64,000 bases of DNA, taken from the IMG/VR virus record IMGVR_UViG_3300027766_000001; one strand, given 5' to 3'. The stretch's first letter is position 1. Each line of letters starts with the position of its first letter. The translations under genes were made by a program, and so were the position numbers. Of the stretch, positions 3,432 to 53,343 are shown one piece after another. A model generated the notes under the pieces. It worked only from the letters and a program-made list of their open reading frames with translations, made no database searches and had not been told where the DNA came from. This DNA comes from a virus (taxonomy: Duplodnaviria; Caudoviricetes).

Positions 3432-3491
3432 AGCACAGAGGCCTCCTCTCCCCGTGAAGGGAGAGGAGTGCCCCTTATGCCGATTATGCCG
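3432..3491. terminator. bidirectional hairpin terminator with two TTATGCCG motifs
   Basis: CTCCTCTCCC/GGGAGAGGAG stem (3443-3468) between convergent genes; TTATGCCG at 3475 and 3484. Confidence 0.8.
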
Positions 3492-6438
3492 TGAGGTTGG
3501 ATTTGGAATCGCTGTGTTTCAGGAAGTTCACGGTGATGTCTTCTACCACGGTCAAGCCGCCGTTGGAAGTCACATCGAGACGCTTCTTGATTGCACAACG
3601 CAGGGTTGGGTCAGACACGGTCAGTACCTGGATATCCTGATCTGGACCAAAGCCCGGGATACGAATGTCCACGATATCGCTGGTACGGTACTGACGCAGT
3701 GCATCCACGGTATCGCTGACAGAGAAGGTTTCCTGTGCCAGGATATCCGTAATCACCGTTGGGATCACTGACTTGAGGTTATCACGCAGAGACGTGTTCT
3801 TGTAGCCGGTATCGGTCAAGTACACATCAAAGGAGAACGCCACCGCAGCAGAGATCTGGCGAGCTTCTTTGGCATTCGCTGTCACATCAATGTAGCCCAG
3901 CGTTTGCTTCGGACGGAACACCACCTTGGTGAGGTTAAGCAGCTTCTTCGTCACCACAGGCATGTCGTTGGTTACCCACGACACCAACTGATTGATAACA
4001 TCCGTGATGTACGTGGCATCCAGGGAGTTACTGGAGAAGTAGTACGCCGCATCCAGACCTACCATGTCAAACTCATGGAGCACAACACGCTGGTTGATTG
4101 GAATTGGGTTACCCTGGTCATCGTACTTCACATCACCCTTGTGATAACGGATCATGGTCTGGCCTTCTGCATCGAGACGCAGATCACCTTTGGCATGCAG
4201 CTTGATCGGGTTACCTGATGCATCAAACACCAACTGCTGACGATCGTCACGCTCCCACTCATCCGCCTCGTAACGCCAGAACACATCTTCCTCGTATTTC
4301 TTGTACGCCACATCAGACGGCAGCGGACGAGCACGGGTATACATGTTGTCCAGGGCATCACCAAACTTCAGCTGGTAACGCTGTTCAGTTACTGCCACCA
4401 TTTCACGATCCAGGTATTCCCGACCCAGCAGCTTATCACTGTCCGACAGTACTACGTCGTTCGGTGACTTGTTCTTGCTGATGCAGTTCAGAATGGTAAA
4501 CGACCCTGACATCGGTGTTTTCAGTTTCGATGGCAGGTTACCAAACTGACCAAAGGAGGTCAGGATCAACTGGTTCGCTTCGGTGATATCCATGTTGGAC
4601 GTTAACTGGAATTCCCAGACACGTTCACGGGTGTCAGTGCGACCCACGATCTTGCCGTTCAGATACGCATAGCTGCTTTCCTCATCCGGTAGGAACAACA
4701 TCTGCATCATCACGTCAGCATCATCCAGGTTCTTGTAGTAATCCCCGGAGGCAGTCGTCAGCTTCAGCACATACCCGTTGTCGCCTTTGGCAAACGCGTA
4801 GTTACCGATCCCCACTTCCACACCAACGGAGTTGTTCTCACTCAAGAACTCACGGTAGGCCACTTCCGGACGGTCCATGTCATAGACGCGGGTCACGAAC
4901 GCATCGTTGTTGGCATCCAGCACATAGTAGAACGGACTGTACAGGAACAGGCCTTTGTTGATCATGACGGCAACGTCTTCGACTTTGCTGCCATTGATCT
5001 CAGCCATCCGGGCATTGGACACCATGGTGTATACACCGTCCACCACTTCGTACAACGCTTTGGGTGAAATGGTAATCCGATTCCCGTTGTCGTGTACTGC
5101 GTTGTTGGTGACCAACTGCTCCATGGTCATCTGTGCTGTGATAATGCCTGTGCCCACTGCAGTAGTGAGTTTCTTGTTCAACTGCGTTCCGACCATGCGG
5201 CTTGCCTGGTAGGTGCGGCTGGTTACAAGGTCTTCCACTTTCAGCACGTCATACCCAAGCTTACTCAGGGTGGCGTTAATCTGACCCGGGGTAATTGGGA
5301 TATCCGTTTGGTTACCGTCGTAGATCACCTGGTTACGCAGATCTGCAAACGACATGGCATTGGTACCACCTGACAGCGTGCCATTCGTGAGAATCGTCTT
5401 CTCGTTGAACACCGTGATCGGTGTAGAAAACTTATCGAGCTGACGCGACTCGTAGTTGAAGTCTAACCACTTAGCCGCAATCTGTGCCCCGGTCACCACT
5501 GTCGGTTCCAGGTACAAGGCGCCTTTTGAGGTATAGATGTCAACACGCACCTGACGCCCAATCCCCACACCGTTGGATATATAGATTTCGGGCAGACGCA
5601 CTTCAACGGTATTCTCCAATACCTTCAGCACAAACGTTAAACGGTTAATGTCAAACGTTTGATCGCTGTGGGTGGAATAGGCTTCATCCCAGTCAGCATC
5701 CGTGGAGGTACGCGTCCAGACACGAGCATAGTAGAAGTAATCCCCGTTTAAGGAGAAGGTGTTCTTGTACGCTGTGGCGGCTGTGATCATCCCGTAGTAC
5801 GGCGTCGCTGTAAACTGACGCATGCTCAATTCGATGTACAAGTACTCGACGTTGTTCATCGTGGCAATGCGCCAATCGATCTGGTTGGTTTCCAGTGTCA
5901 GCAGCGGAGTGGGTTGTGAGACGTCCCACACCACCATGAACCCGCCGTGCTTCATCACACGGATCTCCAGTGGATACTCCTGACTGAAGTCCGCACCTGC
6001 CACACTGTAAACCGAGTTACGTGGGAAGACCAGTTTCGAGTAGACACTGTCAATGTCGTCGTTGGACGATTCGGCAACCCGCACAGCACGCTGGCGCACT
6101 TCCTCGGCGTTGAGGATCAACACAAACGGCAAACGTGATGGTGTGGAGAAACGACCGTCGTAGTCTTCATCGGACATGTGACGGTACAGGTCTTCCTGGC
6201 TGTTGGCTTGCACTGGATAGAAACCGGCGATGGTATCGGCCATTGCCTGCATGCTGGCCGCGTTCATCAGTGCCGACATTTCCATGGCATACCAGAACGG
6301 GTGGTTGGCATCGGGAATATCAATCTCACCGTTCATGGCTTTGTCTAACAGATCCATTGAAAGATCCATCATGCTTGACGGATCATACCGCACGGCTAAA
6401 ATGCGGTCCTTCACCGACAGATTTAGTAAGTCACTCAT
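3484..6438 (-). CDS. large virion structural protein, probable baseplate wedge (phiKZ gp87-like)
   Basis: 984 aa, GAGG RBS; size, divergent position beside the gp88/89-like genes and N-terminal DPxSMM..HPF..ME motif recalled from phiKZ-like phages. Confidence 0.7.
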   Translation of the reverse strand: MSDLLNLSVKDRILAVRYDPSSMMDLSMDLLDKAMNGEIDIPDANHPFWYAMEMSALMNAASMQAMADTIAGFYPVQANSQEDLYRHMSDEDYDGRFSTPSRLPFVLILNAEEVRQRAVRVAESSNDDIDSVYSKLVFPRNSVYSVAGADFSQEYPLEIRVMKHGGFMVVWDVSQPTPLLTLETNQIDWRIATMNNVEYLYIELSMRQFTATPYYGMITAATAYKNTFSLNGDYFYYARVWTRTSTDADWDEAYSTHSDQTFDINRLTFVLKVLENTVEVRLPEIYISNGVGIGRQVRVDIYTSKGALYLEPTVVTGAQIAAKWLDFNYESRQLDKFSTPITVFNEKTILTNGTLSGGTNAMSFADLRNQVIYDGNQTDIPITPGQINATLSKLGYDVLKVEDLVTSRTYQASRMVGTQLNKKLTTAVGTGIITAQMTMEQLVTNNAVHDNGNRITISPKALYEVVDGVYTMVSNARMAEINGSKVEDVAVMINKGLFLYSPFYYVLDANNDAFVTRVYDMDRPEVAYREFLSENNSVGVEVGIGNYAFAKGDNGYVLKLTTASGDYYKNLDDADVMMQMLFLPDEESSYAYLNGKIVGRTDTRERVWEFQLTSNMDITEANQLILTSFGQFGNLPSKLKTPMSGSFTILNCISKNKSPNDVVLSDSDKLLGREYLDREMVAVTEQRYQLKFGDALDNMYTRARPLPSDVAYKKYEEDVFWRYEADEWERDDRQQLVFDASGNPIKLHAKGDLRLDAEGQTMIRYHKGDVKYDDQGNPIPINQRVVLHEFDMVGLDAAYYFSSNSLDATYITDVINQLVSWVTNDMPVVTKKLLNLTKVVFRPKQTLGYIDVTANAKEARQISAAVAFSFDVYLTDTGYKNTSLRDNLKSVIPTVITDILAQETFSVSDTVDALRQYRTSDIVDIRIPGFGPDQDIQVLTVSDPTLRCAIKKRLDVTSNGGLTVVEDITVNFLKHSDSKSNLTA

Positions 6439-6452
6439 ATCAGCCTCTAAGC

Positions 6453-7526: not shown

Positions 7527-7579
7527 TCCTGAGTTCCTCGAAAATCATTTTAAATTTGTCTCTGAAAGGAGTGACGTAT

Positions 7580-8761
7580 ATGTTACCAGTTGTCACTGGC
7601 GTGGTTACATTAGCTACGACTTTAGCATCGCTGGCTAGTTGGTTTTCCAAAGCCAAAGAGAAAGCAAAAGACGCAGGCATCGATCTGGATAAAACCCTGC
7701 AGGCAATCAGTGCAGCGGGTAACTCCGATCTGATCAGCTTCACCAAAGTGTGCCGTATGGAACCTCTGGTGTTACTGGACGACCGTCTCCGTAACGATCC
7801 GGTTACCCCGGACATTATGCAGGTGATCACCAGTATCGTCGCAGGCTACTACCTCCAGACCTTTGCCCTCCTCGGTCAGGTCAGCGGTGTGGATGTGATC
7901 GGCACCCTGGACAAGCTCAATCCAGCCCGTACGGGTATTGGCCTGAACTCGTTCGATAACCCGAACACTGATTACATTAATACGCACCGGGTCGTTAATA
8001 GTTCCGTTCCGTTCTATAGTATCGGGATGGAAGCGCTGTTAGATGAGCCCGTTCCCCCGTCAGCAACCGCTGGCAAAGACAGCAAAACCAGCCTGTCGGT
8101 GCCGGGTAACATTGCTGACATTACTCAAGCCTCCAACCTGGCTGTGGGTAAAATGATTAAGGCGGTGATCACCGCTAACGGTAACTCGGTTGAAGTGCCG
8201 ATTACCATCCGTGTGAAACCGATTAGCACGGACTCGAACTCTATCGCCAGCACGCTTGCGATCGGCACCACCAAGAACAACGTGAAAGAGCGCTGGCAGC
8301 GTTTCCGTGCCGGTGAGCTGACGTTCTCTAACTTGCTCTTTATGGACGACGTTGTGCAGCAGCACAAATCTATCCTGATTAAAGACAAGTCAGGCTTTTA
8401 TGCCGAAGTGGTACGTCGTGCTAACGGTAACCTGGCGAAAGGCATTACCAGCGGTAACCTGTCCATGGCCACCAACTCCAACATCATTGTCATCACGGCG
8501 TCGACCGCCCAGGCAGTGGCGCGTGAGCTTGGCGGTAGCCTGGATAACTTCCAGATCCGCGAAGGCGTGTTTAAGAACGTCTACTCCAACATGCTGGTCG
8601 TGGTTAACCAAGACAGCGCGATGGTGACCTTCTACTACCGTGGCGAGCGCACCGGTACAAACGTGTCGGCGTACGATCTGAAACTGTCCAGCAAAGGCAA
8701 TGGTCCGGACATCATGTCGATCTTCACGGCATTTGCTGAAAACAAAATTCCACCACTCTAA
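7580..8761 (+). CDS. inner-body/head protein (phiKZ gp89-like)
   Basis: ATG at 7580 after AAGGAG RBS (track uses TTG at 7556); DLISFTKVCRMEPLVLLD motif; IGME|AL candidate cleavage site. Confidence 0.75.
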   Translation: MLPVVTGVVTLATTLASLASWFSKAKEKAKDAGIDLDKTLQAISAAGNSDLISFTKVCRMEPLVLLDDRLRNDPVTPDIMQVITSIVAGYYLQTFALLGQVSGVDVIGTLDKLNPARTGIGLNSFDNPNTDYINTHRVVNSSVPFYSIGMEALLDEPVPPSATAGKDSKTSLSVPGNIADITQASNLAVGKMIKAVITANGNSVEVPITIRVKPISTDSNSIASTLAIGTTKNNVKERWQRFRAGELTFSNLLFMDDVVQQHKSILIKDKSGFYAEVVRRANGNLAKGITSGNLSMATNSNIIVITASTAQAVARELGGSLDNFQIREGVFKNVYSNMLVVVNQDSAMVTFYYRGERTGTNVSAYDLKLSSKGNGPDIMSIFTAFAENKIPPL

Positions 8762-8773
8762 GGGATCGGGTTG

Positions 8774-9676: not shown

Positions 9677-9685
9677 GGAGCCGTC

Positions 9686-10219: not shown

Positions 10220-10255
10220 GGCCCGTATCATCTATCTATCACAAGAGGAATTACA

Positions 10256-11740: not shown

Positions 11741-11746
11741 GGAAAT

Positions 11747-13090: not shown

Positions 13091-13101
13091 AGGAAAACAC
13101 G

Positions 13102-14565: not shown

Positions 14566-14638
14566 AACACGAGTAACCATCGTCTTTAACTCATTATATG
14601 TACCACCCGTGCTGGTACCACGGGTTATTGACGATGCG

Positions 14639-14654
14639 TTATTTCATGAAATAA
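14639..14654. promoter_or_regulatory. perfect 16-bp loopless palindrome TTATTTCATGAAATAA upstream of an RBS
   Basis: Self-complementary, checked by hand; ends 3 nt before the GGAG RBS of the gene at 14670. Function unknown. Confidence 0.5.
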
Positions 14655-14669
14655 TACGGAGTACGACAG

Positions 14670-16136: not shown

Positions 16137-16156
16137 GCCTGTCATTAACTAATACT

Positions 16157-16189
16157 GGGGGAGGGGGTTTCCCCTCTCCCTTTATTCCG
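16157..16189 (+). terminator. hairpin terminator followed by TTTATTCCG (variant of the TTATGCCG motif)
   Basis: 10-bp G-rich/C-rich stem 16157-16180 with GTTT loop, then TTTATTCCG. Confidence 0.75.
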
Positions 16190-16206
16190 CCCTAATAGGT
16201 GAAACC

Positions 16207-18839: not shown

Positions 18840-18840
18840 T

Positions 18841-18901
18841 CGGCATAAAAAGGTGTTTCCTTCCCTTTGCGGGGAAGGAAACCCTTTATGTAGTTATGCC
18901 G
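18841..18901. terminator. bidirectional terminator bracketed by CGGCATAA and TTATGCCG
   Basis: TTTCCTTCCC/GGGAAGGAAA stem; GCAA loop on the minus strand; convergent genes. Confidence 0.85.
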
Positions 18902-19581: not shown

Positions 19582-19615
19582 AGCGTCCTCAATATCACAA
19601 AAAGAAAGGGCTGGA

Positions 19616-19641
19616 TAGAAAGGGGCCGAAGCCCCCGTCTA
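19616..19641 (-). terminator. cUUCGg hairpin between the fibre and chaperone genes
   Basis: Minus strand GGGGC-TTCG-GCCCC followed by a pyrimidine/U-rich tract. Confidence 0.65.
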
Positions 19642-23028
<3,387 letters not shown>

Positions 23029-28470: not shown

Positions 28471-28502
28471 ATGACAGGAGTCACATCCTGTCATTTATGC
28501 CG
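28471..28502 (+). terminator. hairpin followed by TTATGCCG
   Basis: ATGACAGGA/TCCTGTCAT 9-bp stem followed immediately by TTATGCCG (28495-28502). Confidence 0.8.
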
Positions 28503-28518: not shown

Positions 28519-28537
28519 ATTTCACACCTACATTACT
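28519..28537 (+). promoter_or_regulatory. putative phage early/middle promoter ATTTCACACCTACATTACT
   Basis: 18/19 identical to 36781-36799; both are intergenic, after a terminator and before non-structural genes; resembles the phiKZ TATTAC early consensus. Confidence 0.65.
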
Positions 28538-31085: not shown

Positions 31086-31137
31086 CGGCATAAGCACTTA
31101 CCCTTCCCTTGCGGGTTGGGTAAGTGCAGTTATGCTG
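31086..31137. terminator. bidirectional terminator with CGGCATAA / TTATGCTG flanks
   Basis: GCACTTACCC/GGGTAAGTGC 10-bp stem between convergent genes. Confidence 0.85.
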
Positions 31138-31155
31138 ATCTTTTATTTTTTGGTA

Positions 31156-31878: not shown

Positions 31879-32104
31879 CGGCATAAAACCCATCCAACCT
31901 CCGTCCGCAGACAGAAGTCAGACAGGCGAAAACTCCAGTTCAGAATAGTCAATTAGTTAAAGTCGATCAAAGAATACGGTTACGCCGGTTAGGGCTTGTT
32001 TTGGTTTTGGGGTGTTGAAGGCGAAAAGCCTGATTTAAAAAAGAGGGGATACAGCATCCTGTGCATCCCCTTAAAAAGAACAACAAATTGCATTTCTGGT
32101 CATA
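31879..32104 (-). ncRNA. candidate small RNA or structured leader between DnaB and the virion gene
   Basis: Inside a 270-bp gap with no credible ORF; hairpin plus U-tract at 32034-32070; G.U-rich minus-strand hairpin at 31894-31921 followed by TTTTATGCCG. Confidence 0.3.
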
Positions 32105-33649: not shown

Positions 33650-33673
33650 CACGTTCCTCGTTAAGGTGAAGTT

Positions 33674-34300: not shown

Positions 34301-34407
34301 ACCGAATAATAATAGTATGTTACTAACTACGTTATGACGTACTGTTACCCAGAGTGTTAGCGCAACACATATTCGGACCGGTAACCCTGGCTCCGGGTGT
34401 AATCGAA

Positions 34408-34421
34408 AACTTATATAAGTT
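34408..34421. promoter_or_regulatory. perfect 14-bp loopless palindrome AACTTATATAAGTT upstream of the capsid RBS
   Basis: Self-complementary, checked by hand; ends about 4 nt before GAAGGA. Confidence 0.45.
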
Positions 34422-34438
34422 ATTGAAGGAACTCCAAC

Positions 34439-36667
34439 ATGGCATTAAAAGTTCTCCATACGCAGCACAGTGCTTCACTGTTCAGCCGTATTCAAGGTGC
34501 AGTACAGAACGGTCAGTTCTCGGTTGCCGATGGCGTTGTCGCAGGTTACGGTCTGGAATCTCTGGACGACGTAAAAGCAGGTCAGCAGGTTTCTGCGATC
34601 GATGCTGCGAAACACGCGCTGAAATCAGCTGCTGGTGTTGGCGGTGCGATCGAAGCTGGCCTGGAAGGTTTCAACGACCAGCAGCTGGAAGCGGGCTCAA
34701 TCGCTGCGACCATCGTTGGTGACCTGTCTGGTTATAGCCGCGCAATGCAGTCTCGTGCTGCTAAAGCGATGAGCGATGGCTTCCAGTCTGTTAGCGGTTC
34801 ACGCTACGGCTCAGCCAACCCGAAACAGGGTTATGGTACTGAAGCGTTTGAACAGGCTCAGGAATTCGTTCCTCAGCAGGCTCAGACCATCGAGTACAAC
34901 ATCAAAGCGGCTAAACAGGACCCGGTTGGCGAAGCGTTCTTCCCTACCACTGTTCTGACTGCGAACGACATCGGCCTGGACGTTAAGATCCCGGTTGACA
35001 TCGTTGAACCTTTCGTCAAGCACAAAGCCACTGGCCAAGTGACTGACTGGCAGCGTAAGAAGCTGATCAACACCCTGCGTGATCCTTCTATCCTGCGTAA
35101 CGACGCGGTTAAACTGCTGCCGTACAAACCTGCTGATAAGTCTAACGACCAGTGGTTTGCTGCCGGTACTGATTTCACCGAAGTGCAGGGCGGCGAAGAT
35201 CTGCCAACTGCAGCTCTGAAACCAGGCGTGCGTGTAGGCTTCATCGGCCTGTGCTCTACTCCTTCACTCGTGCAGAACGGCGTGATGGACCACACTGACC
35301 AGATCGACAACAACGTCCGTCTGCAGTACGTGTGGATCAAAGTGAGCAACGCCGGTGGTACCACTGAGCTGTTCCGTCTGCGCACTGATAACCTGGATCG
35401 TTCTGCGTTCCAGAAAACTCAGGAAGGCGACAAGTTCCAGACTTCTCTGGACCTCGACGTTCTGGCATACCAGCTGAACGCTGGCCAGAAAACTGTTGCG
35501 GGTTCTAAGTCTGTCCTGCTGGCTCCGCTGACCACTGGTAAGCAGACCGTAGGCATCGCGCTGAAAATCAACGGCACCCTGAACCACGAGAAAGGTGACC
35601 TGGTTGTCAACGCCCTGGAACAGCCGCGCATCAGCCGCGTATACGACAACGATGCTCGTGAAGAAATCACGAACACCGCTGCTGTACAGACTGAGATCGC
35701 GAAACTGACCTTCGAATTCGCTGGTTACTACATCAAAGCTAACCTGCGTAACAGCAACTTCCGTACCCGCGAGCAGCGTATCGACCGTCAGACCAGCACC
35801 TATAAGTACCTGGTGCAGCTGGGCGCGCCGATCACTGCAGTAGCTCCGGCTACTAACGACTGGGGCCCGGTTGAAGCTGTTGCTGTTGAGCAGCTGTCTA
35901 CTGCAACCTACGCACGTAACTCCGCAATGGCTATCAGCCGTCTGCTGGACTACGTTGACTCCATGCGCGCTTCTGGCATCGCTAACAACGCCCTGTGGCA
36001 GCGTTACGATGAGAACGCCGTAGAAGGCGTTGGTAAAGCAGTTGTTGATGCCTGGTTTGGTGAAGGCGATTACAACATCAAGGATCTGGTGAACTCCACT
36101 GCGTCACACATGCGCCGTGAAGACATCAGCGAGCAGCTGTTGAACATCATCCGTAACTACGCCTACCGCATGAACGCCGAATCTGGTTACAACGTAGCCA
36201 TCGGCCTGCTGTACAACGAAACCACTCCGATGCTGCTGATCGGTACCGACAACATCATCGCGCAGTACCTGATGGAAGTCGGCGACCTGCGTACCGCTGG
36301 TATCTCTTTCAAAGTAACTGTTGTTACCTCTAACAACATCGAAATGAAAGGCAAAGTCATCATGACTCTGTCTCGCATGAAGTCCGGCGGTCTGGACCTC
36401 TGCACCTTCGGTATGCACCTGTGGGTACCTGAAATCGTTGCAACCGTTAAGATCATGCGTAACGGTAACTACGTTCAGGAAACCATGGTTCAGCCGCGTA
36501 ACCTGCACGTTGTTGTGTGCCCGATCATCGCTCACCTGACCATCTCTGGTCTGGACGAAGCGTACACCGGTTCTATCAACATCCCGGTTACCACCGGCGA
36601 CCTGGCTGCGAACATCGCTCAGACCGTTCTGAATGGCCTGAACGCACAGCCGGCTCAGGGCAGCTAA
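34439..36667 (+). CDS. major capsid protein (phiKZ gp120-like)
   Basis: 742 aa, strongest codon bias in the window; propeptide sites YGLE|SL, AGLE|GF, YGTE|AF; KQDPVGEAFFPT, LMEVGDLRT and QPRNLHV motifs; synteny with DnaB and the RNAP subunit. Confidence 0.9.
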   Translation: MALKVLHTQHSASLFSRIQGAVQNGQFSVADGVVAGYGLESLDDVKAGQQVSAIDAAKHALKSAAGVGGAIEAGLEGFNDQQLEAGSIAATIVGDLSGYSRAMQSRAAKAMSDGFQSVSGSRYGSANPKQGYGTEAFEQAQEFVPQQAQTIEYNIKAAKQDPVGEAFFPTTVLTANDIGLDVKIPVDIVEPFVKHKATGQVTDWQRKKLINTLRDPSILRNDAVKLLPYKPADKSNDQWFAAGTDFTEVQGGEDLPTAALKPGVRVGFIGLCSTPSLVQNGVMDHTDQIDNNVRLQYVWIKVSNAGGTTELFRLRTDNLDRSAFQKTQEGDKFQTSLDLDVLAYQLNAGQKTVAGSKSVLLAPLTTGKQTVGIALKINGTLNHEKGDLVVNALEQPRISRVYDNDAREEITNTAAVQTEIAKLTFEFAGYYIKANLRNSNFRTREQRIDRQTSTYKYLVQLGAPITAVAPATNDWGPVEAVAVEQLSTATYARNSAMAISRLLDYVDSMRASGIANNALWQRYDENAVEGVGKAVVDAWFGEGDYNIKDLVNSTASHMRREDISEQLLNIIRNYAYRMNAESGYNVAIGLLYNETTPMLLIGTDNIIAQYLMEVGDLRTAGISFKVTVVTSNNIEMKGKVIMTLSRMKSGGLDLCTFGMHLWVPEIVATVKIMRNGNYVQETMVQPRNLHVVVCPIIAHLTISGLDEAYTGSINIPVTTGDLAANIAQTVLNGLNAQPAQGS

Positions 36668-36753
36668 GCTAGCAATAGCTTGACGCCTACGACGTAAGTC
36701 GCGTAATCCAGGATCCTCTCTACTTCGGTAGAGGGGGTTCTGGTTTTATGCCG
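36666..36753 (+). terminator. capsid 3' UTR: GCAA and GTAA tetraloop hairpins, then a 16-bp cUUCGg terminator plus TTTTATGCCG
   Basis: Stems verified by hand at 36666-36681, 36690-36701 and about 36708-36743. Confidence 0.85.
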
Positions 36754-36780
36754 GCCTAGCTTTAATAACGAAGTAAAAAT

Positions 36781-36799
36781 ATTTCATACCTACATTACT
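36781..36799 (+). promoter_or_regulatory. putative phage early/middle promoter ATTTCATACCTACATTACT
   Basis: Near-identical copy at 28519; A-rich upstream; precedes the operon with the non-virion RNAP subunit. Confidence 0.7.
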
Positions 36800-36856
36800 A
36801 ATGTGTGACAGCAGACATGCTAGTTCGAGCTAAGCTGTTAGACGGAAGGTATCGTC

Positions 36857-37861
36857 ATGACCAACGACCGCCAATTCCTTGTGGATGATAGTAAGGATAA
36901 GTTCTTCGAATACGATGCAGACATTAAAACGTCGGTAACGATTCGCAGTAACTTGCATGTCCCATTGGTGGTAAGACAACGCAATGGGGTGAGCGCCGCT
37001 ATCCGCCCCAAATATGGGGCAGGGTATCATAGCGGGAATATAGTCGTGCAGATTGAGGTTCTGGCTAAGCCGGAAGTATTTCTGTACATTGATAACCAAT
37101 CTATGGAGTCTCTGCCAGAAGAATACCAAATTCTCTATCAAGCTATACAGACAATGAAAGATCGGGGTACCCAAGTAGGTAATATGCACTTTGCGCGTAT
37201 TAACTTAAAGTACAGCCGAGAATTCTTTGATCAACACGGTGGTGAGTTCTACTCCCCGTTAGCTGACGTGGTGTTGTCCCTAAAGTCAATTGAACAAGTT
37301 GGCGAACATCCGTTCTCACTGACCGCTATCCAACGTCGACAATCAGACCGGGTGACCCGGGATTACGATAACCTCGTGCTTTATGGTATCCAATTGATTG
37401 ATCGATTCGACCAACTCGGCCCCCGGTACATGAATATCGCTGGAGACGTTTTCCGTATCGACCCACTGCCGCTTGATGAGTTCACTGAACAACAAGCAGA
37501 CGGTTTGTATTTGTTGGGTACGCAGCCCATGCGAAGTGCTAAGGACATTTCGAACAGTGCACGTTCCGACTTTATTCCCCTTGACAAGTTATTGAAAGAC
37601 CCCAACAAGTACGGAGTATGGTCGAGCTTTGGTGAAGCACGTCATCAAGGTAATAAACAATTGGAAACCGCACAGAACGCCTTGGAGGTCGCACAGCGTG
37701 CCGGTGAGAAGAAAGACCGTCAGATTGAGAATTTAAAGAAAGAGCTGGACGAGGCCAAAACAAAGCACAAGCAAGAGGGTAGTCTTGTGTTGCATAAAGG
37801 GATGACGGAGTTAATTAAACTCGCAACCGCTATGATTGGCATCGTTAAATTATTAAAATAA
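36857..37861 (+). CDS. conserved hypothetical protein with C-terminal coiled coil and hydrophobic tail (phiKZ gp122-like position)
   Basis: 334 aa, GAAGG RBS, lies between the capsid and nvRNAP genes. Confidence 0.7.
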   Translation: MTNDRQFLVDDSKDKFFEYDADIKTSVTIRSNLHVPLVVRQRNGVSAAIRPKYGAGYHSGNIVVQIEVLAKPEVFLYIDNQSMESLPEEYQILYQAIQTMKDRGTQVGNMHFARINLKYSREFFDQHGGEFYSPLADVVLSLKSIEQVGEHPFSLTAIQRRQSDRVTRDYDNLVLYGIQLIDRFDQLGPRYMNIAGDVFRIDPLPLDEFTEQQADGLYLLGTQPMRSAKDISNSARSDFIPLDKLLKDPNKYGVWSSFGEARHQGNKQLETAQNALEVAQRAGEKKDRQIENLKKELDEAKTKHKQEGSLVLHKGMTELIKLATAMIGIVKLLK

Positions 37862-37870
37862 GGTAACATC

Positions 37871-39556
37871 ATGGATCCATTGCTCGAGAACATACTGAAG
37901 CCCATCATCGTTAAGATGAACCCGGATTTCTACGAAGGCCTGGTGAAGCGTGAGATGGACAAATCTCTGCATTACCTTGACCGTGTGTTTCGTAGTGCTT
38001 TTGGTAGTTTAGGATCTAACATTGAGTACGTTGGGTATCGCTGTTGCCGCCCTGATGAGGAATACCGTTTCAAGCTAAAACGTAACGGTGGGAACTCCGC
38101 ATCGAAAGTGCGTTATGAGTTGGCCCGATCGGATTTGCGTCTGGTGAAGTTTGACTTCATGATTGACGGTAAACCGATTCAGCCTTTGCTGTTGTATGTG
38201 CCGTATTGTGACGAGACTGGGTTGATGCATTTGCGTGGAACTGCGCACACCATCTCAGCCGTGGTAGAAGACCCGGGCGTATCCATTACGCAAGACGGTT
38301 GCTTCTTCCGTGTTACCTGCGACAAGATTGTGATTCGTCGTACCGTGCACACGATCTGTAAAGATGAAATCAACATCGTGCAGAAGCGTAAGCGGGTACA
38401 GAAGCACATCAACATCCCGTACGGTAAGATCTATCGTGCGAAACAGCAGAAAGCCAACACCAACAAAAACCCACCCACACCTTCATTGCCACATTACTTG
38501 TTTGCCAAGTTTGGGGTAACCCATGCGTTTCGTCATTTTGCGCGTGTAGAAGTGGTGTATGGAACGGAACTGGAAATCACCCCAGAGACGCATCCAGACA
38601 GTGAGTGGACGCGGTACTACAGTACTAAGGTTAACCACCCCAACAACAAACGTCCTATGGATTGGGCGCCGTCCAATGCCGCTATGGCTGTACGGGCAAT
38701 TAACCCAAGTAACCTGACTGAGATCATGGTGGCTGGGTATTTCTACGTGGCTGACTGTTACCCACAAGAGTTTGTGCCTGGCTTCTCTGACGAACCAGAA
38801 CACTGGCGCTTGATGATGGGTAAGATGGTGTTTAACCGTCAAGTCAAACACGTGCAGATGTCAGACTACCTGCGTCCTCACTTCGAGTCGTTAGACACGT
38901 ACCTCGATGCAATGGCGCAAGAGAACCTGGCAGAAGAAGGGATTGTGTGTGAAGACATCTACGAGGTAATGGCGTACATCATTGCCAACCTGGATAGCAT
39001 GATTAACACGGTGAACCTGGCCAGTGTTTATGGTAAGAAGTTGGCAGTCTTACCCTACGTGCTGTCGCCCATCGTGCATGGGATCTTCTACACGAAGTTC
39101 AACTTGATGCAGCAGTGCAAGCAGTGGGATGTAAACCAGGAAACCGGTGAGCGTAAAATGCGCTTTACAGAAGCTAACTTGCTTGAAGCCTTTAAGCAGA
39201 ACTTGAAGCCGGAGGTCATTTACAAAGTAAAAGGTGCTGACCACGGTGAGATCAGTTCTATCGCGGCACCGGGTGATAACAAGCTGTTTAAGATCAACAA
39301 CAAGTTGGTCCTGCAGCAAAACGCGTCAGGTGGCAAAGGACGTCCCAGCACATCACCGATGGCTGATGACTCCAAGGGGCTCGATGTCAGTATTGCAGAC
39401 TGTAATGCATACTTACACAGCACCAAGCCAGACCCCACTGGCCGTTCTATCGCAAACCTGTACAAACCACTGCCGAACAACCGGTTCGAGCCGTCGGTCA
39501 AACACGACAAGTTGTTTACTGCTACACAGGCAATCATTACGCGTCGCAATATCTAA
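37871..39556 (+). CDS. non-virion RNA polymerase beta-type subunit (phiKZ gp123-like)
   Basis: 561 aa; YELARSDLRLVKF, LLYVPY, LPHYLFAKFG and KPDPTGRS motifs; position two genes after the capsid gene as in phiKZ. Confidence 0.8.
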   Translation: MDPLLENILKPIIVKMNPDFYEGLVKREMDKSLHYLDRVFRSAFGSLGSNIEYVGYRCCRPDEEYRFKLKRNGGNSASKVRYELARSDLRLVKFDFMIDGKPIQPLLLYVPYCDETGLMHLRGTAHTISAVVEDPGVSITQDGCFFRVTCDKIVIRRTVHTICKDEINIVQKRKRVQKHINIPYGKIYRAKQQKANTNKNPPTPSLPHYLFAKFGVTHAFRHFARVEVVYGTELEITPETHPDSEWTRYYSTKVNHPNNKRPMDWAPSNAAMAVRAINPSNLTEIMVAGYFYVADCYPQEFVPGFSDEPEHWRLMMGKMVFNRQVKHVQMSDYLRPHFESLDTYLDAMAQENLAEEGIVCEDIYEVMAYIIANLDSMINTVNLASVYGKKLAVLPYVLSPIVHGIFYTKFNLMQQCKQWDVNQETGERKMRFTEANLLEAFKQNLKPEVIYKVKGADHGEISSIAAPGDNKLFKINNKLVLQQNASGGKGRPSTSPMADDSKGLDVSIADCNAYLHSTKPDPTGRSIANLYKPLPNNRFEPSVKHDKLFTATQAIITRRNI

Positions 39557-39620
39557 CACGCCTTTACCTGTATGAGTAACGCTTGTAACCGCTTTCACAT
39601 TTAAACCACGGACATTTATT

Positions 39621-42185
39621 ATGCAACCTTTCTATCAGCAGCAGCCGATGAACATGTACCAGCCTCAGGGTGCGCCGCAGTTTTATCAACCACAGATGCC
39701 ACAACCGCAAATGTGGCAGCAGCCGCAGCCTCAGATGATGCAACAGCCTCAGCAGCAACCGCAGGTATCGCAGCAGCAAGTGATGCAGGCGTTAGCAACG
39801 TATGTTCAGCAGGCATCTAATGCAACGCAGATCGGGGCATATCTGTATCAGCGTTCATCTGGTCAGAACTGGCAGGACCCTGAATTCCAAGGTGCGGTTC
39901 AAGTAGGTGTTGCTTTTGTTATGTTGACACTGCGTACAACGCCAGGTCTGCCGATTCAGCAAGTGCTGAGCCGTGCGGTCACGGATACGTACAGCGTGAT
40001 GGTGATCATGAGTCTGGGTGCAAACCCGGGTATGGTAAGCACCATGCCGCAGCAGGTTCTGCAAGAGCTGTTACAAGACATTCCCCGTCTGCAACAGCAA
40101 CTGAACCAGGGTATGCAGTTAATTGGTAAGAATATTCAGATCCCTCTGTCTATTCCAGGTTACCAGGTAATGGCACAACACCCTACGGTTCAGCCGATGA
40201 TGCCGCAGATGATCCAGTATCAACAGCCGGGTATGCCAATGATGCAGCAACCAAGCATGCATCAGCAGTACGGTATTTCGCCTATGCAGCAACCAGGTCA
40301 GTCGCAAGGCGCGCACTTAGGTTACAGCAATGCGCGTTCTATGGTGCCACCTGCAGCCGCTGACAACCATCTGGGTGTCGCACCGGTGAAGATTGCACCA
40401 CCGGTCGCTAACGCCACTACCAGTAACGATAACGAGCTCGGTATCACGGCCCGTCAGGTAAGCTATGGTGTACACAATCCTAAGCCACTGTTGGCTGAAG
40501 ATCCGTTTGCGCCACAGCCTGCACAACAGCCGCAAGCCCAGTCTCAGCAACAGCCTGAACAACCACCGACCTTTAACCAGGGTGTGATGGAACAGTTCAG
40601 TACGCCGTCTCTGCAAACTGCGATCGATAACCAAATCAATCAGCACTATCCCAGCGACATTAACTTTGACCAAGTGGCTGAGTTAAGCAGTGAAGAAGAA
40701 GACGCACTGTTTAATCCGCCGGCTGACGAAGATTCCCGTCCGATGCCAAGCATGACTGAATTGTTTGCCAGCTCGTTTGGTCCAAACAAAGCAGATCCAT
40801 GGTCCGCACCGTACGGTGGTGTTGCAGGTGAAGTTGTACCTCAGCAGCACATCGTTCAGCAGCCTGAGCCTGTGGCACTTGCTCCGGTTAATCAAGCGCC
40901 TGTTGCGCCTGTTGCTTCTACGCCGGTACTCAGTGAAGAAGGTCTGCCGGATGGTTGGCTCTACACTGAGAAGTATTACGATGCACCGTCGGCTGACTTC
41001 TATGCAATCATGAAGAAAGCCCGTCGTCACAAATCCTGTCCATGGCCGATTGGCTACGATCGTCGCTATTGTACGCGTCTGTATCGTTACATGGAAGATG
41101 GCTCAATCGAACAGAAAATTGTTGGGGTACCTATGGATCGTCTCAAACACGACATCAGCCTGCTGGATACACCAGTGCCGACTGATAAAATCCGTGATGC
41201 GGAAATGGCCGACTTCGGTCCGTTGACGATCACCGGTGTCGGTGAAGCGGTGAAAATCATTAAAGACCCAGAAGTGACGCCAGAGATCCTGGAAGAGAAA
41301 CTGGGTGCGGACAGCATCTACACCATCGATAAGCCGGTGTATGCGTTGTCACGTCAGGAAGCGATGCTGCTGGGCTCACTCAAAGTGAAACCGATCATCG
41401 ATGAAGAGAAAACCAACGTACACGGTTTTGAAACCCAGATCCGTGAAATCAAACTCATCACCCAGCACGCTGAACTGACTACCCTGCTGGAAAACCCGGA
41501 TATCAACGCACTGACCATTGACTCAACGGTTCCTGACCTGATGCAACTGGCTGAAGCGATCCGTAATATCCGTACCAACAACTACCTGCCGGAGCGTGCG
41601 CTGCGTAAGATCACGGATTACATTCGTGACACGCTGAACGAAATGCTCTACGCAGACTACGGCTATGCCGGTGAAGTTGAACTGGAAAGTGAGCAGCCGC
41701 TGGAAGATGAGCTGGTTGAGTTCATTATGTACATGCAGAAAGACCCGTCTGATATGGACGTGTTGGATCGCATTCACAAGAACTGGGAAAACGTCCGTTC
41801 ACGCCTGTGTAAAGTTCTGACCGGTAATCCGCTGAAAGCTGCGCAGATGCAAATCGCGAAGCGTTACAACGGCACCGAAGAAGAGCAGAAGATGTTGGTT
41901 GAGCAGATGTCAACCGCCGTACTGCTGGAAGTGGCGTACAGCATCACCACGATGAACCGTACTGCTAAGCAGCTGCGTGCACATGACAACCAGCCTGCGT
42001 TCGTTACCATGCGTTCTGAGCGTCCTTATCTGCATCAGCTGATGAGCGACATCAAGAAACGTGGTAAAGCGACCGGTAGCGTTGTGACCAAGCACATCAT
42101 CATTACCCGTGACGGTATTGAGCTGGGCTTCTCACAAGCCGGTCTGGGTGCAGGCGATACCTTCCCAACCTGGTACATTAACTAA
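39621..42185 (+). CDS. large protein with Gln/Pro-rich low-complexity N-terminal region
   Basis: 854 aa; about the first 370 aa are Q/P/M-rich around a short helical segment; C-terminal half looks folded. Confidence 0.8.
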   Translation: MQPFYQQQPMNMYQPQGAPQFYQPQMPQPQMWQQPQPQMMQQPQQQPQVSQQQVMQALATYVQQASNATQIGAYLYQRSSGQNWQDPEFQGAVQVGVAFVMLTLRTTPGLPIQQVLSRAVTDTYSVMVIMSLGANPGMVSTMPQQVLQELLQDIPRLQQQLNQGMQLIGKNIQIPLSIPGYQVMAQHPTVQPMMPQMIQYQQPGMPMMQQPSMHQQYGISPMQQPGQSQGAHLGYSNARSMVPPAAADNHLGVAPVKIAPPVANATTSNDNELGITARQVSYGVHNPKPLLAEDPFAPQPAQQPQAQSQQQPEQPPTFNQGVMEQFSTPSLQTAIDNQINQHYPSDINFDQVAELSSEEEDALFNPPADEDSRPMPSMTELFASSFGPNKADPWSAPYGGVAGEVVPQQHIVQQPEPVALAPVNQAPVAPVASTPVLSEEGLPDGWLYTEKYYDAPSADFYAIMKKARRHKSCPWPIGYDRRYCTRLYRYMEDGSIEQKIVGVPMDRLKHDISLLDTPVPTDKIRDAEMADFGPLTITGVGEAVKIIKDPEVTPEILEEKLGADSIYTIDKPVYALSRQEAMLLGSLKVKPIIDEEKTNVHGFETQIREIKLITQHAELTTLLENPDINALTIDSTVPDLMQLAEAIRNIRTNNYLPERALRKITDYIRDTLNEMLYADYGYAGEVELESEQPLEDELVEFIMYMQKDPSDMDVLDRIHKNWENVRSRLCKVLTGNPLKAAQMQIAKRYNGTEEEQKMLVEQMSTAVLLEVAYSITTMNRTAKQLRAHDNQPAFVTMRSERPYLHQLMSDIKKRGKATGSVVTKHIIITRDGIELGFSQAGLGAGDTFPTWYIN

Positions 42186-42194
42186 TCGCATACG

Positions 42195-42223
42195 GCGAGG
42201 GCTTCGGCTCTCGCTTTATGCCG
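42195..42223 (+). terminator. cUUCGg hairpin followed by TTTATGCCG
   Basis: GCGAGGGC-TTCG-GCTCTCGC, then TTTATGCCG. Confidence 0.85.
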
Positions 42224-42254
42224 TCCTTTCTTTCTACTGTAAAACGAGACCTGT

Positions 42255-42446
42255 ATGATCACCAAAGAACAATACGACGCGGCCGACGCCTATCTGGATG
42301 AAAATAACCAGACAGCGTGGGTCGACTTAAGCAGCAGTGCAACCGAAGTGAAACTGGACGGGTGGTTCACCCTTGCGGATCTGGAAGCTGTAATTACTAT
42401 GAAGAAGTACTTACTCCAGAACCCAGAGGCGAAAACCGATGCGTGA
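42255..42446 (+). CDS. small hypothetical protein
   Basis: 63 aa, GAG upstream, overlaps the next ORF. Confidence 0.6.
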   Translation: MITKEQYDAADAYLDENNQTAWVDLSSSATEVKLDGWFTLADLEAVITMKKYLLQNPEAKTDA

Positions 42447-42756: not shown

Positions 42757-42757
42757 C

Positions 42758-42830
42758 CGGCATAAAGACCGTGTCCTCTTCCTCCTTGCGGGGGAAGAGG
42801 CACGTGTCTCACTTATGCTTTCTTTTTTGG
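42758..42830. terminator. bidirectional terminator with CGGCATAA and TTATGCTT flanks
   Basis: CCTCTTCCTCC-TTGC-GGGGGAAGAGG stem between convergent genes. Confidence 0.85.
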
Positions 42831-42838
42831 TTTACTGC

Positions 42839-46249: not shown

Positions 46250-46280
46250 TTATAAGGCTCCTTGTTTTCGGGAGATTCCG

Positions 46281-48737: not shown

Positions 48738-48782
48738 TCCATCCTATGTTATCCAGTATTTAACCCATGAAGGAGTGACCTT

Positions 48783-49667: not shown

Positions 49668-49669
49668 TC

Positions 49670-50491: not shown

Positions 50492-50506
50492 AAAGGATTG
50501 CTATAA

Positions 50507-51391: not shown

Positions 51392-51407
51392 AGGGTGAAG
51401 GTCTCGG

Positions 51408-52244: not shown

Positions 52245-52254
52245 AAATGGTGTA

Positions 52255-52270
52255 GTGGGGCTCGCCCCAC
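52255..52270 (+). terminator. short GC-rich hairpin at the end of the adaptor operon
   Basis: GTGGGG-CTCG-CCCCAC; no U-tract, so the terminator role is uncertain. Confidence 0.4.
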
Positions 52271-52287
52271 TCACTAAGTGAGGCGGT

Positions 52288-52902
52288 ATGGTTTTTCATG
52301 ATGGACGTCCCGTGGAACCGCTACGGGTGGTCAGTATCGACCCCGGTACCGAAACCATGGGGATTGCGTTATTGGGGTTGCATCCAATAACCCTGGAGCA
52401 GTCGTACATCGAAGCCTTCACTATGCGTGGGTCGGTGGTTAACTACTACTGGGGAAATGTGTTGCATGATGGCGATGGGCGTGACTCACGTCTGTTGGGA
52501 TTAGAAGGGCAGTTGTTGAATTATTTCCTGCGTGTGCAACCGCACATCGTGGTGTATGAAGATAACTACCTGGGCGCGTCCCCACAGTCGTATAAAGCGC
52601 TGATTGAAGCCTGCATGTGCATTAAGCACGCGATCTGGAAATACAACCCGTACTTGGCATCTTACACGGTGAAACCCAACCAGGCGAAATCCACGGTAGG
52701 GGCGATTCCGAAAAAGGGGATGTCCAAGGACGAGCGAAAAGAATTGGTGCGCCAAGGTCTGCTGCGCTATCAGCCACTACAGGTTCCCAGAGAGATTCTC
52801 CTGGCTTTGGACGAACACTCAGTGGATGCGGTAGCCATCGGAGCGTATGCACTGGAAGAGCTTAGCAGAGAGCTTCTGCTGGGCCAATGGAGAACACCAT
52901 GA
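52288..52902 (+). CDS. ruvC: RuvC-like Holliday junction resolvase
   Basis: SIDPGTETMG, VVYED, SKD and DEHSVDAVAIG catalytic motifs. Confidence 0.9.
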   Translation: MVFHDGRPVEPLRVVSIDPGTETMGIALLGLHPITLEQSYIEAFTMRGSVVNYYWGNVLHDGDGRDSRLLGLEGQLLNYFLRVQPHIVVYEDNYLGASPQSYKALIEACMCIKHAIWKYNPYLASYTVKPNQAKSTVGAIPKKGMSKDERKELVRQGLLRYQPLQVPREILLALDEHSVDAVAIGAYALEELSRELLLGQWRTP

Positions 52903-53291
52903 CTGATTCAACGGTTAAACCGGTTGATGCAGTGGTGGATGCAGATGAGAAAGTGTTGGACGCGTTACATGGTACATCCCACAGCCTTGCCTCGAAAGCG
53001 ATGGTACTCTGCGGGATGATGTCTGGTTTCACGGTCAATGCGTGTGCGCTGATGTTCTTTGTGATGTGTCTTATTCATGTGATACGCAACGGTGCCTGGC
53101 CGCCTAATGTGGGCTGGGGAATCACCTCTGTGATGTTAGCAGGTCCAGTACTGACCAACTGGCAGTTCATGGGTGTACGCAAGATTCTGACAGCGATCTT
53201 CTCCGAGCACAACTCGATGGGGTCCATTGTCAAAGAAGTGGTTGTCAGACGCATGGGTGGTACACCGCCTACTCCGCCTCCACAGCAGTAA
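52899..53291 (+). CDS. holin-like membrane protein
   Basis: ATG at 52899 (ATGA overlap with ruvC, GGAG RBS); 130 aa with 2-3 hydrophobic segments; converges on the spanin pair. Confidence 0.5.
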   Translation: MTDSTVKPVDAVVDADEKVLDALHGTSHSLASKAMVLCGMMSGFTVNACALMFFVMCLIHVIRNGAWPPNVGWGITSVMLAGPVLTNWQFMGVRKILTAIFSEHNSMGSIVKEVVVRRMGGTPPTPPPQQ

Positions 53292-53292
53292 T

Positions 53293-53343
53293 CGGCATAA
53301 AGGAACCCTGGGGCCGCTCACGCAGTCCCAGGGTTTTATGCCG
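53293..53343. terminator. bidirectional terminator with perfect CGGCATAA...TTATGCCG flanks
   Basis: AACCCTGGG/CCCAGGGTT stem between convergent genes. Confidence 0.85.

What the first reader, a model, noticed from the sequence alone, without database searches (positions are those of the whole stretch)
3432..53343. Conserved TTATGCCG motif replaces the poly-U tract after 3' hairpins: candidate phage-specific termination or mRNA 3'-end code
Seen: exact TTATGCCG, or its reverse complement CGGCATAA, at 3475, 3484, 18841(rc), 18894, 28495, 31086(rc), 31879(rc), 36746, 42216, 42758(rc), 53293(rc) and 53336. The 3484 copy overlaps a stop codon, leaving 11 clearly hairpin-associated copies. Variants occur at 16181 (TTTATTCCG), 31130 (TTATGCTG) and 42813 (TTATGCTT). 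The motif lies 0-15 nt 3' of a strong stem-loop on the strand just transcribed. At convergent junctions it appears on both sides of one hairpin, once per strand. A given 8-mer is expected about twice by chance in 128 kb of both strands, and I noticed only one coding-region copy (8398). Known: host-type intrinsic terminators need a U-tract, whereas phiKZ-like phages use their own virion and non-virion RNAPs, and the phiKZ late promoter core is TATG. Inference: hairpin plus UUAUGCCG is a sequence-specific signal. It could be a terminator element for the phage RNAPs, a nuclease or RNA-binding-protein tag on mRNA 3' ends (possibly tied to export through the nuclear shell), or a coupled terminator/TATG re-initiation site that makes antisense RNA at convergent junctions. 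I recall similar strings in other phiKZ-like genomes but not a functional description.
Basis: partly seen in the sequence, partly recalled or inferred. Interest (0 to 1): 0.75.

Follow-up and report, generated by a model that had tools for sequence, protein, structure and literature searches.

The report
Jumbo-phage terminators with TTATGCCG tail
The repeated "GC-rich hairpin followed by TTATGCCG" is real, and it is this Erwinia/Salmonella giant phage's version of a transcription stop signal already mapped by experiment in phiKZ and 201phi2-1, so it is a new example of a known signal.

Summary
TTATGCCG occurs 13 times in the window against 1.5 expected. Twelve copies are non-coding or touch a stop codon, and they follow GC-rich hairpins with GNRA or UUCG loops.

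The window comes from an unrecorded nucleus-forming-type jumbo phage. Its nearest relatives are Salmonella phage SA002, Erwinia pEa_SNUABM_37/48 and the Agricanvirus phages RAY and Ea35-70. It encodes a homologue of phiKZ gp123, the beta-like subunit of the non-virion RNA polymerase.

- **Enrichment in relatives:** SA002 has 48 copies against 5 controls, RAY 42 against 9, and SNUABM_37 57 against 17.
- **Position:** the motif lies at 41 of 60 convergent gene junctions but only 3 of 59 divergent ones.
- **Strand:** stems of one-directional copies hold 47 G·U pairs against 3 A·C.
- **Conservation:** orthologous stems diverge completely while the tail is kept.

Together these point to an RNA-level terminator, not a promoter or a DNA repeat.

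The motif fits the published phiKZ terminator consensus, hairpin + TTATKYYGT (Putzeys 2024). There, RNA 3' ends map 3-8 nt after the stem. 201phi2-1 has the same motif, and its terminators also work with host polymerase.

The scan reached the same reading earlier for Goslar-like phages. The signal is newly noted for this clade. Why GCCG follows TTAT is still unknown.

The parts
3443..3491 (+). Terminator after gene 2172-3431(+): hairpin 3443-3468 (GTGA-type loop), then two TTATGCCG copies at 3475-3482 and 3484-3491. The second overlaps the stop codon of the convergent gene.
   Evidence: the SA002 orthologue keeps the first copy
3422..3468 (-). The same hairpin read on the - strand, after gene 3484-6438(-), with a degenerate tail TTTATATGCGA.
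16157..16189 (+). Hairpin 16157-16180 with variant tail TTTATTCCG, at a co-directional junction.
   Evidence: identical in SA002
18841..18901 (.). Bidirectional terminator at a convergent junction: hairpin about 18850-18887, TTATGCCG on - at 18841-18848 and on + at 18894-18901. On + it is preceded by the degenerate copy TTTATGTAG.
28471..28502 (+). One-directional terminator: hairpin 28471-28494, with TTATGCCG at 28495-28502 directly abutting the stem.
28527..28536 (+). CCTACATTAC box, 25 nt after the terminator tail. It is a likely early (virion RNAP) promoter, like phiKZ TATATTAC.
   Evidence: conserved at the same place in SA002 and RAY; phiKZ early promoter rows
31086..31151 (.). Bidirectional terminator at a convergent junction: hairpin 31094-31127, exact motif on - at 31086-31093, variant TTATGCTG on + at 31130-31137 followed by a T-run at 31141-31151.
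31879..31927 (-). One-directional terminator: hairpin 31888-31927 with several G·U pairs (stable only on the - strand RNA), and TTATGCCG at 31879-31886.
32044..32071 (-). Canonical hairpin plus T-run terminator directly after the DnaB-like helicase gene. It has no TTATG tail, and the T-run type is conserved in SA002 and RAY.
36708..36753 (+). Terminator after the major head protein gene: hairpin 36708-36743 (UUCG loop, 3 G·U pairs), then TTTTATGCCG with the motif at 36746-36753.
36789..36798 (+). Second CCTACATTAC box, ahead of the operon 36857-42185 that includes the gp123 homologue.
37871..39556 (+). Homologue of phiKZ gp123, the beta-like subunit of the non-virion RNAP that binds non-template TATG in phiKZ. 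Identity is 26%, and most pocket residues are kept.
   Evidence: PMC12809450
42195..42223 (+). Terminator ending the operon 36857-42185: hairpin 42195-42214 (UUCG loop), then TTTATGCCG with the motif at 42216-42223.
42758..42828 (.). Bidirectional terminator at a convergent junction: hairpin core 42775-42800, exact motif on - at 42758-42765, variant TTATGCTT on + at 42813-42820 followed by a T-run.
53293..53343 (.). Bidirectional terminator at a convergent junction: hairpin 53304-53335, with exact motifs on - at 53293-53300 and on + at 53336-53343.
8398..8405 (+). Coding-region copy with no strong hairpin, best read as a chance occurrence.
   Evidence: chance expectation 1.47

Best explanation
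[quoted passage not shown] The transcript folds into a GC-rich hairpin with a stable tetraloop. The next bases, (U)UUAU followed by GCCG, take the place of the usual U-tract. By analogy with phiKZ, the RNA ends a few nucleotides after the stem, within or just past UUAUG. At convergent gene pairs one hairpin serves both strands, so the tail appears on each side as CGGCATAA ... TTATGCCG. The same signal closes a late unit (the major head gene) and an operon that follows an early-type promoter box, so it probably works for both phage polymerases. What is shown: the motif, its hairpin association, its position and strand logic, its conservation, and selection at the RNA level. What is inferred from relatives: that RNA 3' ends form here. 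What is unknown: why the distal tail is GCCG.
For: - **Enrichment:** 13 copies against 1.47 expected in the window. SA002 has 48 against 5 controls, RAY 42 against 9 and pEa_SNUABM_37 57 against 17.
- **Hairpin association:** 80 of 103 copies meet a strict criterion, against 2.6% of random sites and 0 of 86 control 8-mers. The gap from stem to TTATG is 0-3 nt.
- **Junction logic:** the motif is present at 41 of 60 convergent junctions and 3 of 59 divergent ones. In co-directional gaps it is sense 43 times and antisense 16 times.
- **RNA-level selection:** one-directional hairpins hold 47 G·U against 3 A·C stem positions, and bidirectional ones 28 against 23.
- **Orthologous sites:** in window, SA002 and RAY the stems are entirely different but the tail and the UUCG or GNRA loops are kept.
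- **Consensus:** after hairpin + TTAT the next bases are G 0.62-0.73, C 0.63-0.74, C 0.65-0.69 and G 0.58-0.59. This fits the published phiKZ terminator consensus TTATKYYGT (PMC10914365).
- **Mapped 3' ends:** published phiKZ 3' ends, placed on the genome, fall 3-8 nt after the stem.
- **201phi2-1:** its motif A (n=59) resembles the phiKZ motif, and its terminators were active in a terminator trap.
- **Polymerase context:** the window encodes the nvRNAP beta-like subunit, and its relative RAY is a proven nucleus-forming phage with two msRNAPs (PMC10299810).
Against:
- Mapped 3' ends in phiKZ do not by themselves separate termination from processing to a protective hairpin.
- The tail is a poor U-tract: the canonical hairpin + U-run scan is not above chance (17 against 15.4). 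The mechanism may therefore differ from textbook intrinsic termination.
- Some co-directional copies sit only 20-40 nt before the next start codon with no visible promoter between them, for example 42216 -> 42255. These sites must be leaky or must allow re-initiation.
- My gene calls are ORF-based. The 13 antisense copies in SA002 co-directional gaps may reflect miscalled genes or bidirectional sites.
Confidence: 0.85

Rival explanations
1. The hairpin plus tail is mainly an RNA processing, stability or export signal. Transcripts run on and are trimmed back to the hairpin, or a protein binds UUAUGCCG, for example for export from the phage nucleus. The element would then not be a true termination site.
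For: The selection acts at the RNA level on the tail-bearing strand. The tail is sequence-conserved far beyond what a U-tract needs. 3'-end mapping in phiKZ cannot tell termination from trimming.
Against: In phiKZ the mapped 3' ends lie 3-8 nt after the stem, so much of the GYYG part may not remain in the RNA. 201phi2-1 terminators block downstream reporter expression in uninfected cells. No candidate binding protein is known. SPN3US, EL and AR9 carry TTTATTTT in the same position, which looks like an ordinary U-tract variant.
Confidence: 0.08
2. The TATG inside the tail is a late promoter of the non-virion RNAP (phiKZ late promoters are TATG with G as +1). The element would then be a coupled terminator and re-initiation site, giving antisense RNAs at convergent junctions.
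For: The phiKZ late promoter is TATG (PMC4666361). The window's gp123 homologue keeps most TATG-pocket residues. Some co-directional copies lie 20-40 nt before the next start codon with no other promoter visible. One phiKZ late TSS (P049) lies at a second TATG 5 nt after a terminator's TATG.
Against: The motif is at 41 of 60 convergent junctions but only 3 of 59 divergent ones, where promoters should be. Almost no intergenic copies lack a hairpin. Of 59 published phiKZ TSS rows read, none ends at a terminator's own TATG. Rows that contain hairpin + TTATG start 20-40 nt further on. A conserved candidate late promoter upstream of the major head gene (AATAGTATGT) has no hairpin and no CCG. A separate promoter-like box follows the tail.
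Confidence: 0.04
3. The elements are copies of a mobile or recombinogenic palindromic DNA repeat (REP/MITE-like), or binding sites for a DNA-binding protein, with no role in RNA.
For: At convergent junctions the whole unit is a long DNA palindrome (CGGCATAA-stem-TTATGCCG), and it recurs about 50 times per genome.
Against: Stem sequences are not conserved between copies or between orthologous sites; only the tail is. One-directional copies are not palindromic in the tail. G·U pairs outnumber A·C 47 to 3 on the tail-bearing strand, which has no meaning for duplex DNA. Positions are conserved across genomes that are only 75-83% identical.
Confidence: 0.03

Closest known systems
Conserved phiKZ terminator motif (Putzeys et al. 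2024, microLife, PMC10914365; bioRxiv 10.1101/2023.10.13.562163, Table S4) and 201phi2-1 terminator motif A (PMC11512511)
   Same: A GC-rich stem-loop, often with a pyrimidine-rich 5' arm and a purine-rich 3' arm, followed at once by (Y)TTAT and then K-Y-Y-G. TTATGCCG is one instance of TTATKYYG. Both lie at the ends of transcription units and are bidirectional at convergent genes. Both belong to phages with two multisubunit RNAPs.
   Different: Here the distal tail is almost fixed as GCCG, whereas phiKZ mostly has GT(Y) or GCT. The exact 8-mer is not enriched in phiKZ (6 copies against 9 controls). Stem sequences are more varied. No 3'-end mapping exists for this clade, and the Agricanvirus genome paper found no significant motifs (PMC6690015).
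Canonical bacterial intrinsic (Rho-independent) terminators
   Same: A GC-rich hairpin with a stable tetraloop, then a U-containing tail. In relatives the RNA ends a few nucleotides after the stem. Bidirectional use at convergent genes is shared, and 201phi2-1 examples work with host RNAP.
   Different: The tail has only 3-5 U, interrupted by A and followed by a conserved G-C-C-G. A standard hairpin + U-run scan does not exceed chance. A few true T-run terminators coexist in the window (32044-32071, 61173-61192).
phiKZ late promoter TATG (Yakunina 2015, PMC4666361; structure PMC12809450)
   Same: It shares the four letters TATG, which the beta-like subunit gp123 binds in the non-template strand. 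The window encodes a gp123 homologue.
   Different: Late promoters are not tied to hairpins and lie upstream of genes. The element here depends on a hairpin, lies downstream of genes, and is nearly absent from divergent junctions.
T7 RNAP class II (sequence-specific) pause/termination signal
   Same: It offers an analogy for a phage RNAP stop signal with a conserved sequence instead of a plain U-run (from my own knowledge, not tested here).
   Different: The T7 signal needs no hairpin, has a different sequence, and acts on a single-subunit RNAP.

Membership tests
phiKZ-type conserved terminator (hairpin + TTATKYYGT) | GC-rich stem-loop directly upstream of the tail | tested here: met
   80 of 103 copies have a stem of <= -15 kcal/mol ending within 4 nt. 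The gap is 0-3 nt. Loops are of UUCG or GNRA type.
phiKZ-type conserved terminator (hairpin + TTATKYYGT) | Tail sequence TTAT followed by K, Y, Y, G | tested here: met
   TTATGCCG fits exactly. Position frequencies after hairpin + TTAT in SA002 and RAY are G, C, C, G at 0.58-0.74.
phiKZ-type conserved terminator (hairpin + TTATKYYGT) | Located at 3' ends of transcription units, on the transcribed strand, and bidirectional at convergent genes | tested here: met
   41 of 60 convergent against 3 of 59 divergent junctions, and sense 43 against antisense 16 in co-directional gaps. The upstream gene is on the same strand in 82 of 95 copies.
phiKZ-type conserved terminator (hairpin + TTATKYYGT) | RNA 3' ends map at the tail | not testable with these tools
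In phiKZ the published ends lie 3-8 nt after the stem.
phiKZ-type conserved terminator (hairpin + TTATKYYGT) | Host genome is a phiKZ-like phage with its own multisubunit RNAPs | tested here: met
   The window's 37871-39556 is a gp123 homologue (tblastn E 9e-46). The major head protein and helicase match phiKZ-like PHROGs. The relative RAY is a proven nucleus-forming phage.
Canonical intrinsic terminator | U-tract of about 7-9 nt, mostly U, after the hairpin | tested here: not met
   The tail is (U)UUAU + GCCG. The standard scan finds 17 sites against 15.4 in shuffles.
phiKZ late promoter (TATG, G = +1) | Lies upstream of genes, including at divergent junctions, independent of hairpins | tested here: not met
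   3 of 59 divergent junctions carry the motif. Intergenic copies without a hairpin are rare.
phiKZ late promoter (TATG, G = +1) | Primary 5' ends at the G | not testable with these tools
   There are no data for this clade. In phiKZ, 0 of 59 TSS rows read end at a terminator's own TATG.
REP/MITE-like palindromic repeat | Conserved repeat sequence across copies, including the stem | tested here: not met
   Stems differ between copies and between orthologous sites, and only the tail is conserved.

The most novel reading that the evidence does not exclude
The tail could be a polymerase-specific stop element. As the phage RNAP transcribes past the hairpin, the same pocket of the beta-like subunit (gp123 homologue, window 37871-39556) that reads non-template TATG at late promoters might capture the TATG of the tail. 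That would hold the enzyme with the RNA end at UUAU|G while the hairpin forms, with GCCG acting as a downstream clamp. One protein pocket would then mark both starts and stops. The evidence does not exclude this: pocket residues are largely kept in lineages with TATG tails (phiKZ, this clade, Goslar) and less so in SPN3US and EL, whose tails are TTTATTTT. That trend, however, cannot be separated from overall divergence. Three points weigh against it. The pocket is described as incomplete in the transcribing complex. The same tail ends an operon that is probably transcribed by the virion RNAP. And 201phi2-1 terminators work with host RNAP.
Probability: 0.15. Interest if true: 0.65.

Novelty: new member of a known kind. 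Interest (0 to 1): 0.25.

Why it matters
The result gives a simple, testable rule for annotating transcription-unit ends in Agricanvirus- and SA002-like jumbo phages, where standard terminator predictors fail: a GC hairpin followed by YTTATGCCG, read on the transcribed strand. It also extends the phiKZ terminator motif to an enterobacterial clade. Comparison across lineages shows that TTAT is the shared core of the tail, while the next four bases differ: GCCG here, GYY in phiKZ, and TTTT in SPN3US, EL and AR9. This makes the open question precise: what do these non-canonical RNA polymerases read in the tail? It is not a new kind of element.

Tried and rejected
- **Literature string search:** searching for the 8-mer gave only primer-type hits.
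- **Automatic tail classification:** using RNAfold or my own stem finder was unreliable, because the tail pairs with the upstream CATAA at bidirectional sites and gets absorbed into the stem. I used motif-anchored tests instead.
- **AAAGGCGA:** this 8-mer looked more enriched than the motif, but it comes from collagen-like KGD repeats in gene 19642-23028(-).
- **Other lineages:** the exact 8-mer is not enriched in phiKZ, SPN3US, EL or AR9, and only mildly in 201phi2-1 and Goslar. Only the looser TTAT(K) tail is shared.
- **Pocket covariation:** comparing gp123 TATG-pocket residues with tail type was suggestive but inconclusive. There are only seven lineages, identity is about 17-26%, and the trend is confounded with overall divergence.
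- **Rfam:** no family matched.
- **Sigma-70-like promoters:** not enriched (10 found against 14.4 in shuffles).
- **Not run:** I built no covariance model of the element, because stems vary too much in length for a meaningful alignment.
Full report
**Observation.** TTATGCCG occurs 13 times on the two strands of the window, against 1.47 expected from dinucleotide-preserving shuffles (maximum 5). Twelve copies are intergenic or touch a stop codon, and they lie directly 3' of GC-rich hairpins with UUCG or GNRA-type loops. The thirteenth, at 8398, is in a coding frame without a strong hairpin and matches the chance expectation. One-mismatch variants are at background (47 matches against 42), so the exact word is under selection. 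An unbiased 8-mer scan puts it among the most over-represented words. The words ranked above it (AAAGGCGA and relatives) come from collagen-like KGD repeats in one gene.

**What the window is.** The nearest records are Salmonella phage SA002 (75-83% nucleotide identity), Erwinia phages pEa_SNUABM_37/48, and the Agricanvirus group, RAY and Ea35-70. The window carries several phiKZ-like genes:
- a phiKZ-type major head protein gene (34439-36667);
- a DnaB-like helicase (32117-33652, -);
- many virion proteins;
- at 37871-39556, a homologue of phiKZ gp123, the beta-like subunit of the non-virion RNA polymerase.

RAY is an experimentally shown nucleus-forming phage with two multisubunit RNAPs (PMC10299810). 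No genome is held for the window itself.

**The motif beyond the window.** SA002 has 48 copies against 5 for the reversed control word. RAY has 42 against 9, and pEa_SNUABM_37 has 57 against 17. In SA002 almost all copies follow a hairpin. Under a strict criterion, 80 of 103 copies in window + SA002 + RAY have a stem of at least -15 kcal/mol ending within 4 nt. The same holds for 2.6% of random positions and 0 of 86 control 8-mers. Conditioned only on hairpin + TTAT, the next four bases are G, C, C, G at 0.58-0.74 each.

**Terminator, promoter or DNA repeat?** Three tests separate these readings.
1. *Junction type.* The motif (TTATGC[CT]G) is present at 41 of 60 convergent junctions but at only 3 of 59 divergent ones. 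In co-directional gaps it is on the sense strand 43 times and antisense 16 times. Terminators should show this pattern, and promoters the opposite. All five convergent junctions in the window carry it.
2. *Strand asymmetry of wobble pairs.* In hairpins with a tail on one side only, stems hold 47 G·U against 3 A·C positions. In two-sided hairpins the numbers are 28 and 23. The structure is therefore selected as RNA on the strand that continues into UUAUGCCG.
3. *Orthologous sites.* After the major head gene, after the gp123 operon and elsewhere, the stems of window, SA002 and RAY share almost no sequence yet still pair. The tail and the loop type are kept.

This rules out a REP-like repeat. A separate conserved box, CCTACATTAC, follows the tail by 25-40 nt at 28527 and 36789. 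It sits at the same places in SA002 and RAY. It resembles the phiKZ early promoter (TATATTAC), which in phiKZ also follows terminator tails.

**Published knowledge.** Putzeys et al. 2024 mapped phiKZ RNA 3' ends by ONT-cappable-seq. For 61 terminators they reported a conserved stem-loop followed by TTAT, with the tail consensus TTATKYYGT (PMC10914365). TTATGCCG is one instance of that tail. I placed their Table S4 coordinates on the phiKZ genome, and the 3' ends fall 3-8 nt after the stem, inside TTATGY. The 201phi2-1 study found a motif (n=59) that 'strongly resembles' the phiKZ one. It also showed that eight terminators are active in uninfected P. chlororaphis (PMC11512511), so the signal does not depend on the phage polymerase. 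The Agricanvirus genome paper ran MEME and FIMO and reported nothing significant (PMC6690015), so the signal had not been described for this clade. Earlier follow-ups in this scan reached the same reading for Goslar-like phages. I had found the papers before reading those notes.

**The TATG coincidence.** phiKZ late promoters are TATG with G as +1 (PMC4666361), and gp123 binds these four bases in the non-template strand (PMC12809450). The window's gp123 homologue keeps F151, K158, K190, H331, S334, Q466 and S144, and has conservative changes at H185 and Y406. I read 59 of the published phiKZ start sites. None ends at a terminator's own TATG. Three lie 5-25 nt further on, one of them (P049) at a second TATG just 5 nt past the terminator's. 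Early and middle promoters follow at 30-40 nt. Upstream of the major head gene, window, SA002 and RAY share AATAGTATGT with no hairpin and no CCG, a likely late promoter. The tail is therefore not the late promoter.

It remains open whether the polymerase's TATG pocket helps it pause at the tail. Tails are TTATG-type in phiKZ, Goslar and this clade, but TTTATTTT in SPN3US and EL, and TTATTTT or T-runs in AR9. Pocket conservation follows the same split, but so does overall divergence.

**Mechanism proposed.** The hairpin forms in the nascent RNA, and the weak rU:dA-rich hybrid (UUUAU) lets the transcript go. GCCG lies at or just beyond the release point. The two variant tails in the window, TTATGCTG at 31130 and TTATGCTT at 42813, are each followed by a T-run. 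This fits the tail and a U-run being interchangeable parts of one function. Exact tails close both the major head gene (late) and the operon that starts after an early-type box and contains the gp123 homologue. Both phage polymerases therefore probably respond to the signal; this step is inference.

**Limits.**
- No RNA data exist for this clade.
- Gene calls are ORF-based.
- Termination and trimming are not separated even in phiKZ.
- Some co-directional copies lie 20-40 nt before the next start codon with no promoter between them, so those sites must be leaky or allow restart.

**Verdict.** I class it as a new member of a known kind, of modest interest.

Noticed in passing
window 19642-23028 (-): An 1128-aa protein full of collagen-like Gly-X-Y (KGD) repeats, probably a fibre. 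It explains the strongest 8-mer enrichments in the window (AAAGGCGA, AAAGGTGA).
   Followed up: partly
window 28527-28536 and 36789-36798 (+); SA002 genome-wide: A CCTACATTAC box (2 exact copies here, 13 in SA002 against 0.3 expected) lies 25-40 nt after terminator tails. It is conserved at orthologous sites in SA002 and RAY and resembles the phiKZ early promoter TATATTAC, so it is likely the virion-RNAP promoter of this clade.
   Followed up: partly
window 34301-34438 (+): Upstream of the major head gene, three blocks are conserved with SA002 and RAY: AATAGTATGT (a candidate late promoter with TATG), a GTGTTAGCGCAACAC palindrome, and ACTTATATAAGT just before the ribosome-binding site.
   Followed up: partly
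window 19615-19642 (-), 52262-52286 (+), 61173-61192 (+): GC hairpins without the TTATG tail sit directly before the next gene's ribosome-binding site inside operons. They are conserved as tail-less hairpins in SA002 and RAY, and may be attenuators or RNA-stabilising structures.
   Followed up: no
window 42216-42255 (+); SA002 5443, 50917, 55455: Some exact terminators are followed within 20-40 nt by a start codon with no promoter-like box between them. The downstream gene must depend on read-through or on restart at the tail.
   Followed up: no
SA002 genome; window 31141-31151, 42823-42828: Runs of eight or more T or A are about ten-fold over-represented in SA002 (70 against 6.9). They often sit a few bases after variant tails at convergent junctions.
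   Followed up: no
window 3475-3491 and 18885-18901 (+): Two tails occur in tandem with a 9-nt offset: TTATGCCG-A-TTATGCCG, and TTTATGTAG followed by TTATGCCG. A similar tandem (TTATGC-TATG) marks the one phiKZ late start site found next to a terminator (P049).
   Followed up: no
window 34439-39556 compared with the SA002 and RAY record ends: The window runs straight from the major head gene into the gp122/gp123-like genes. In the SA002 and RAY records that point is the arbitrary end and start of the sequence, so this genome is numbered differently or is circularly permuted.
   Followed up: no
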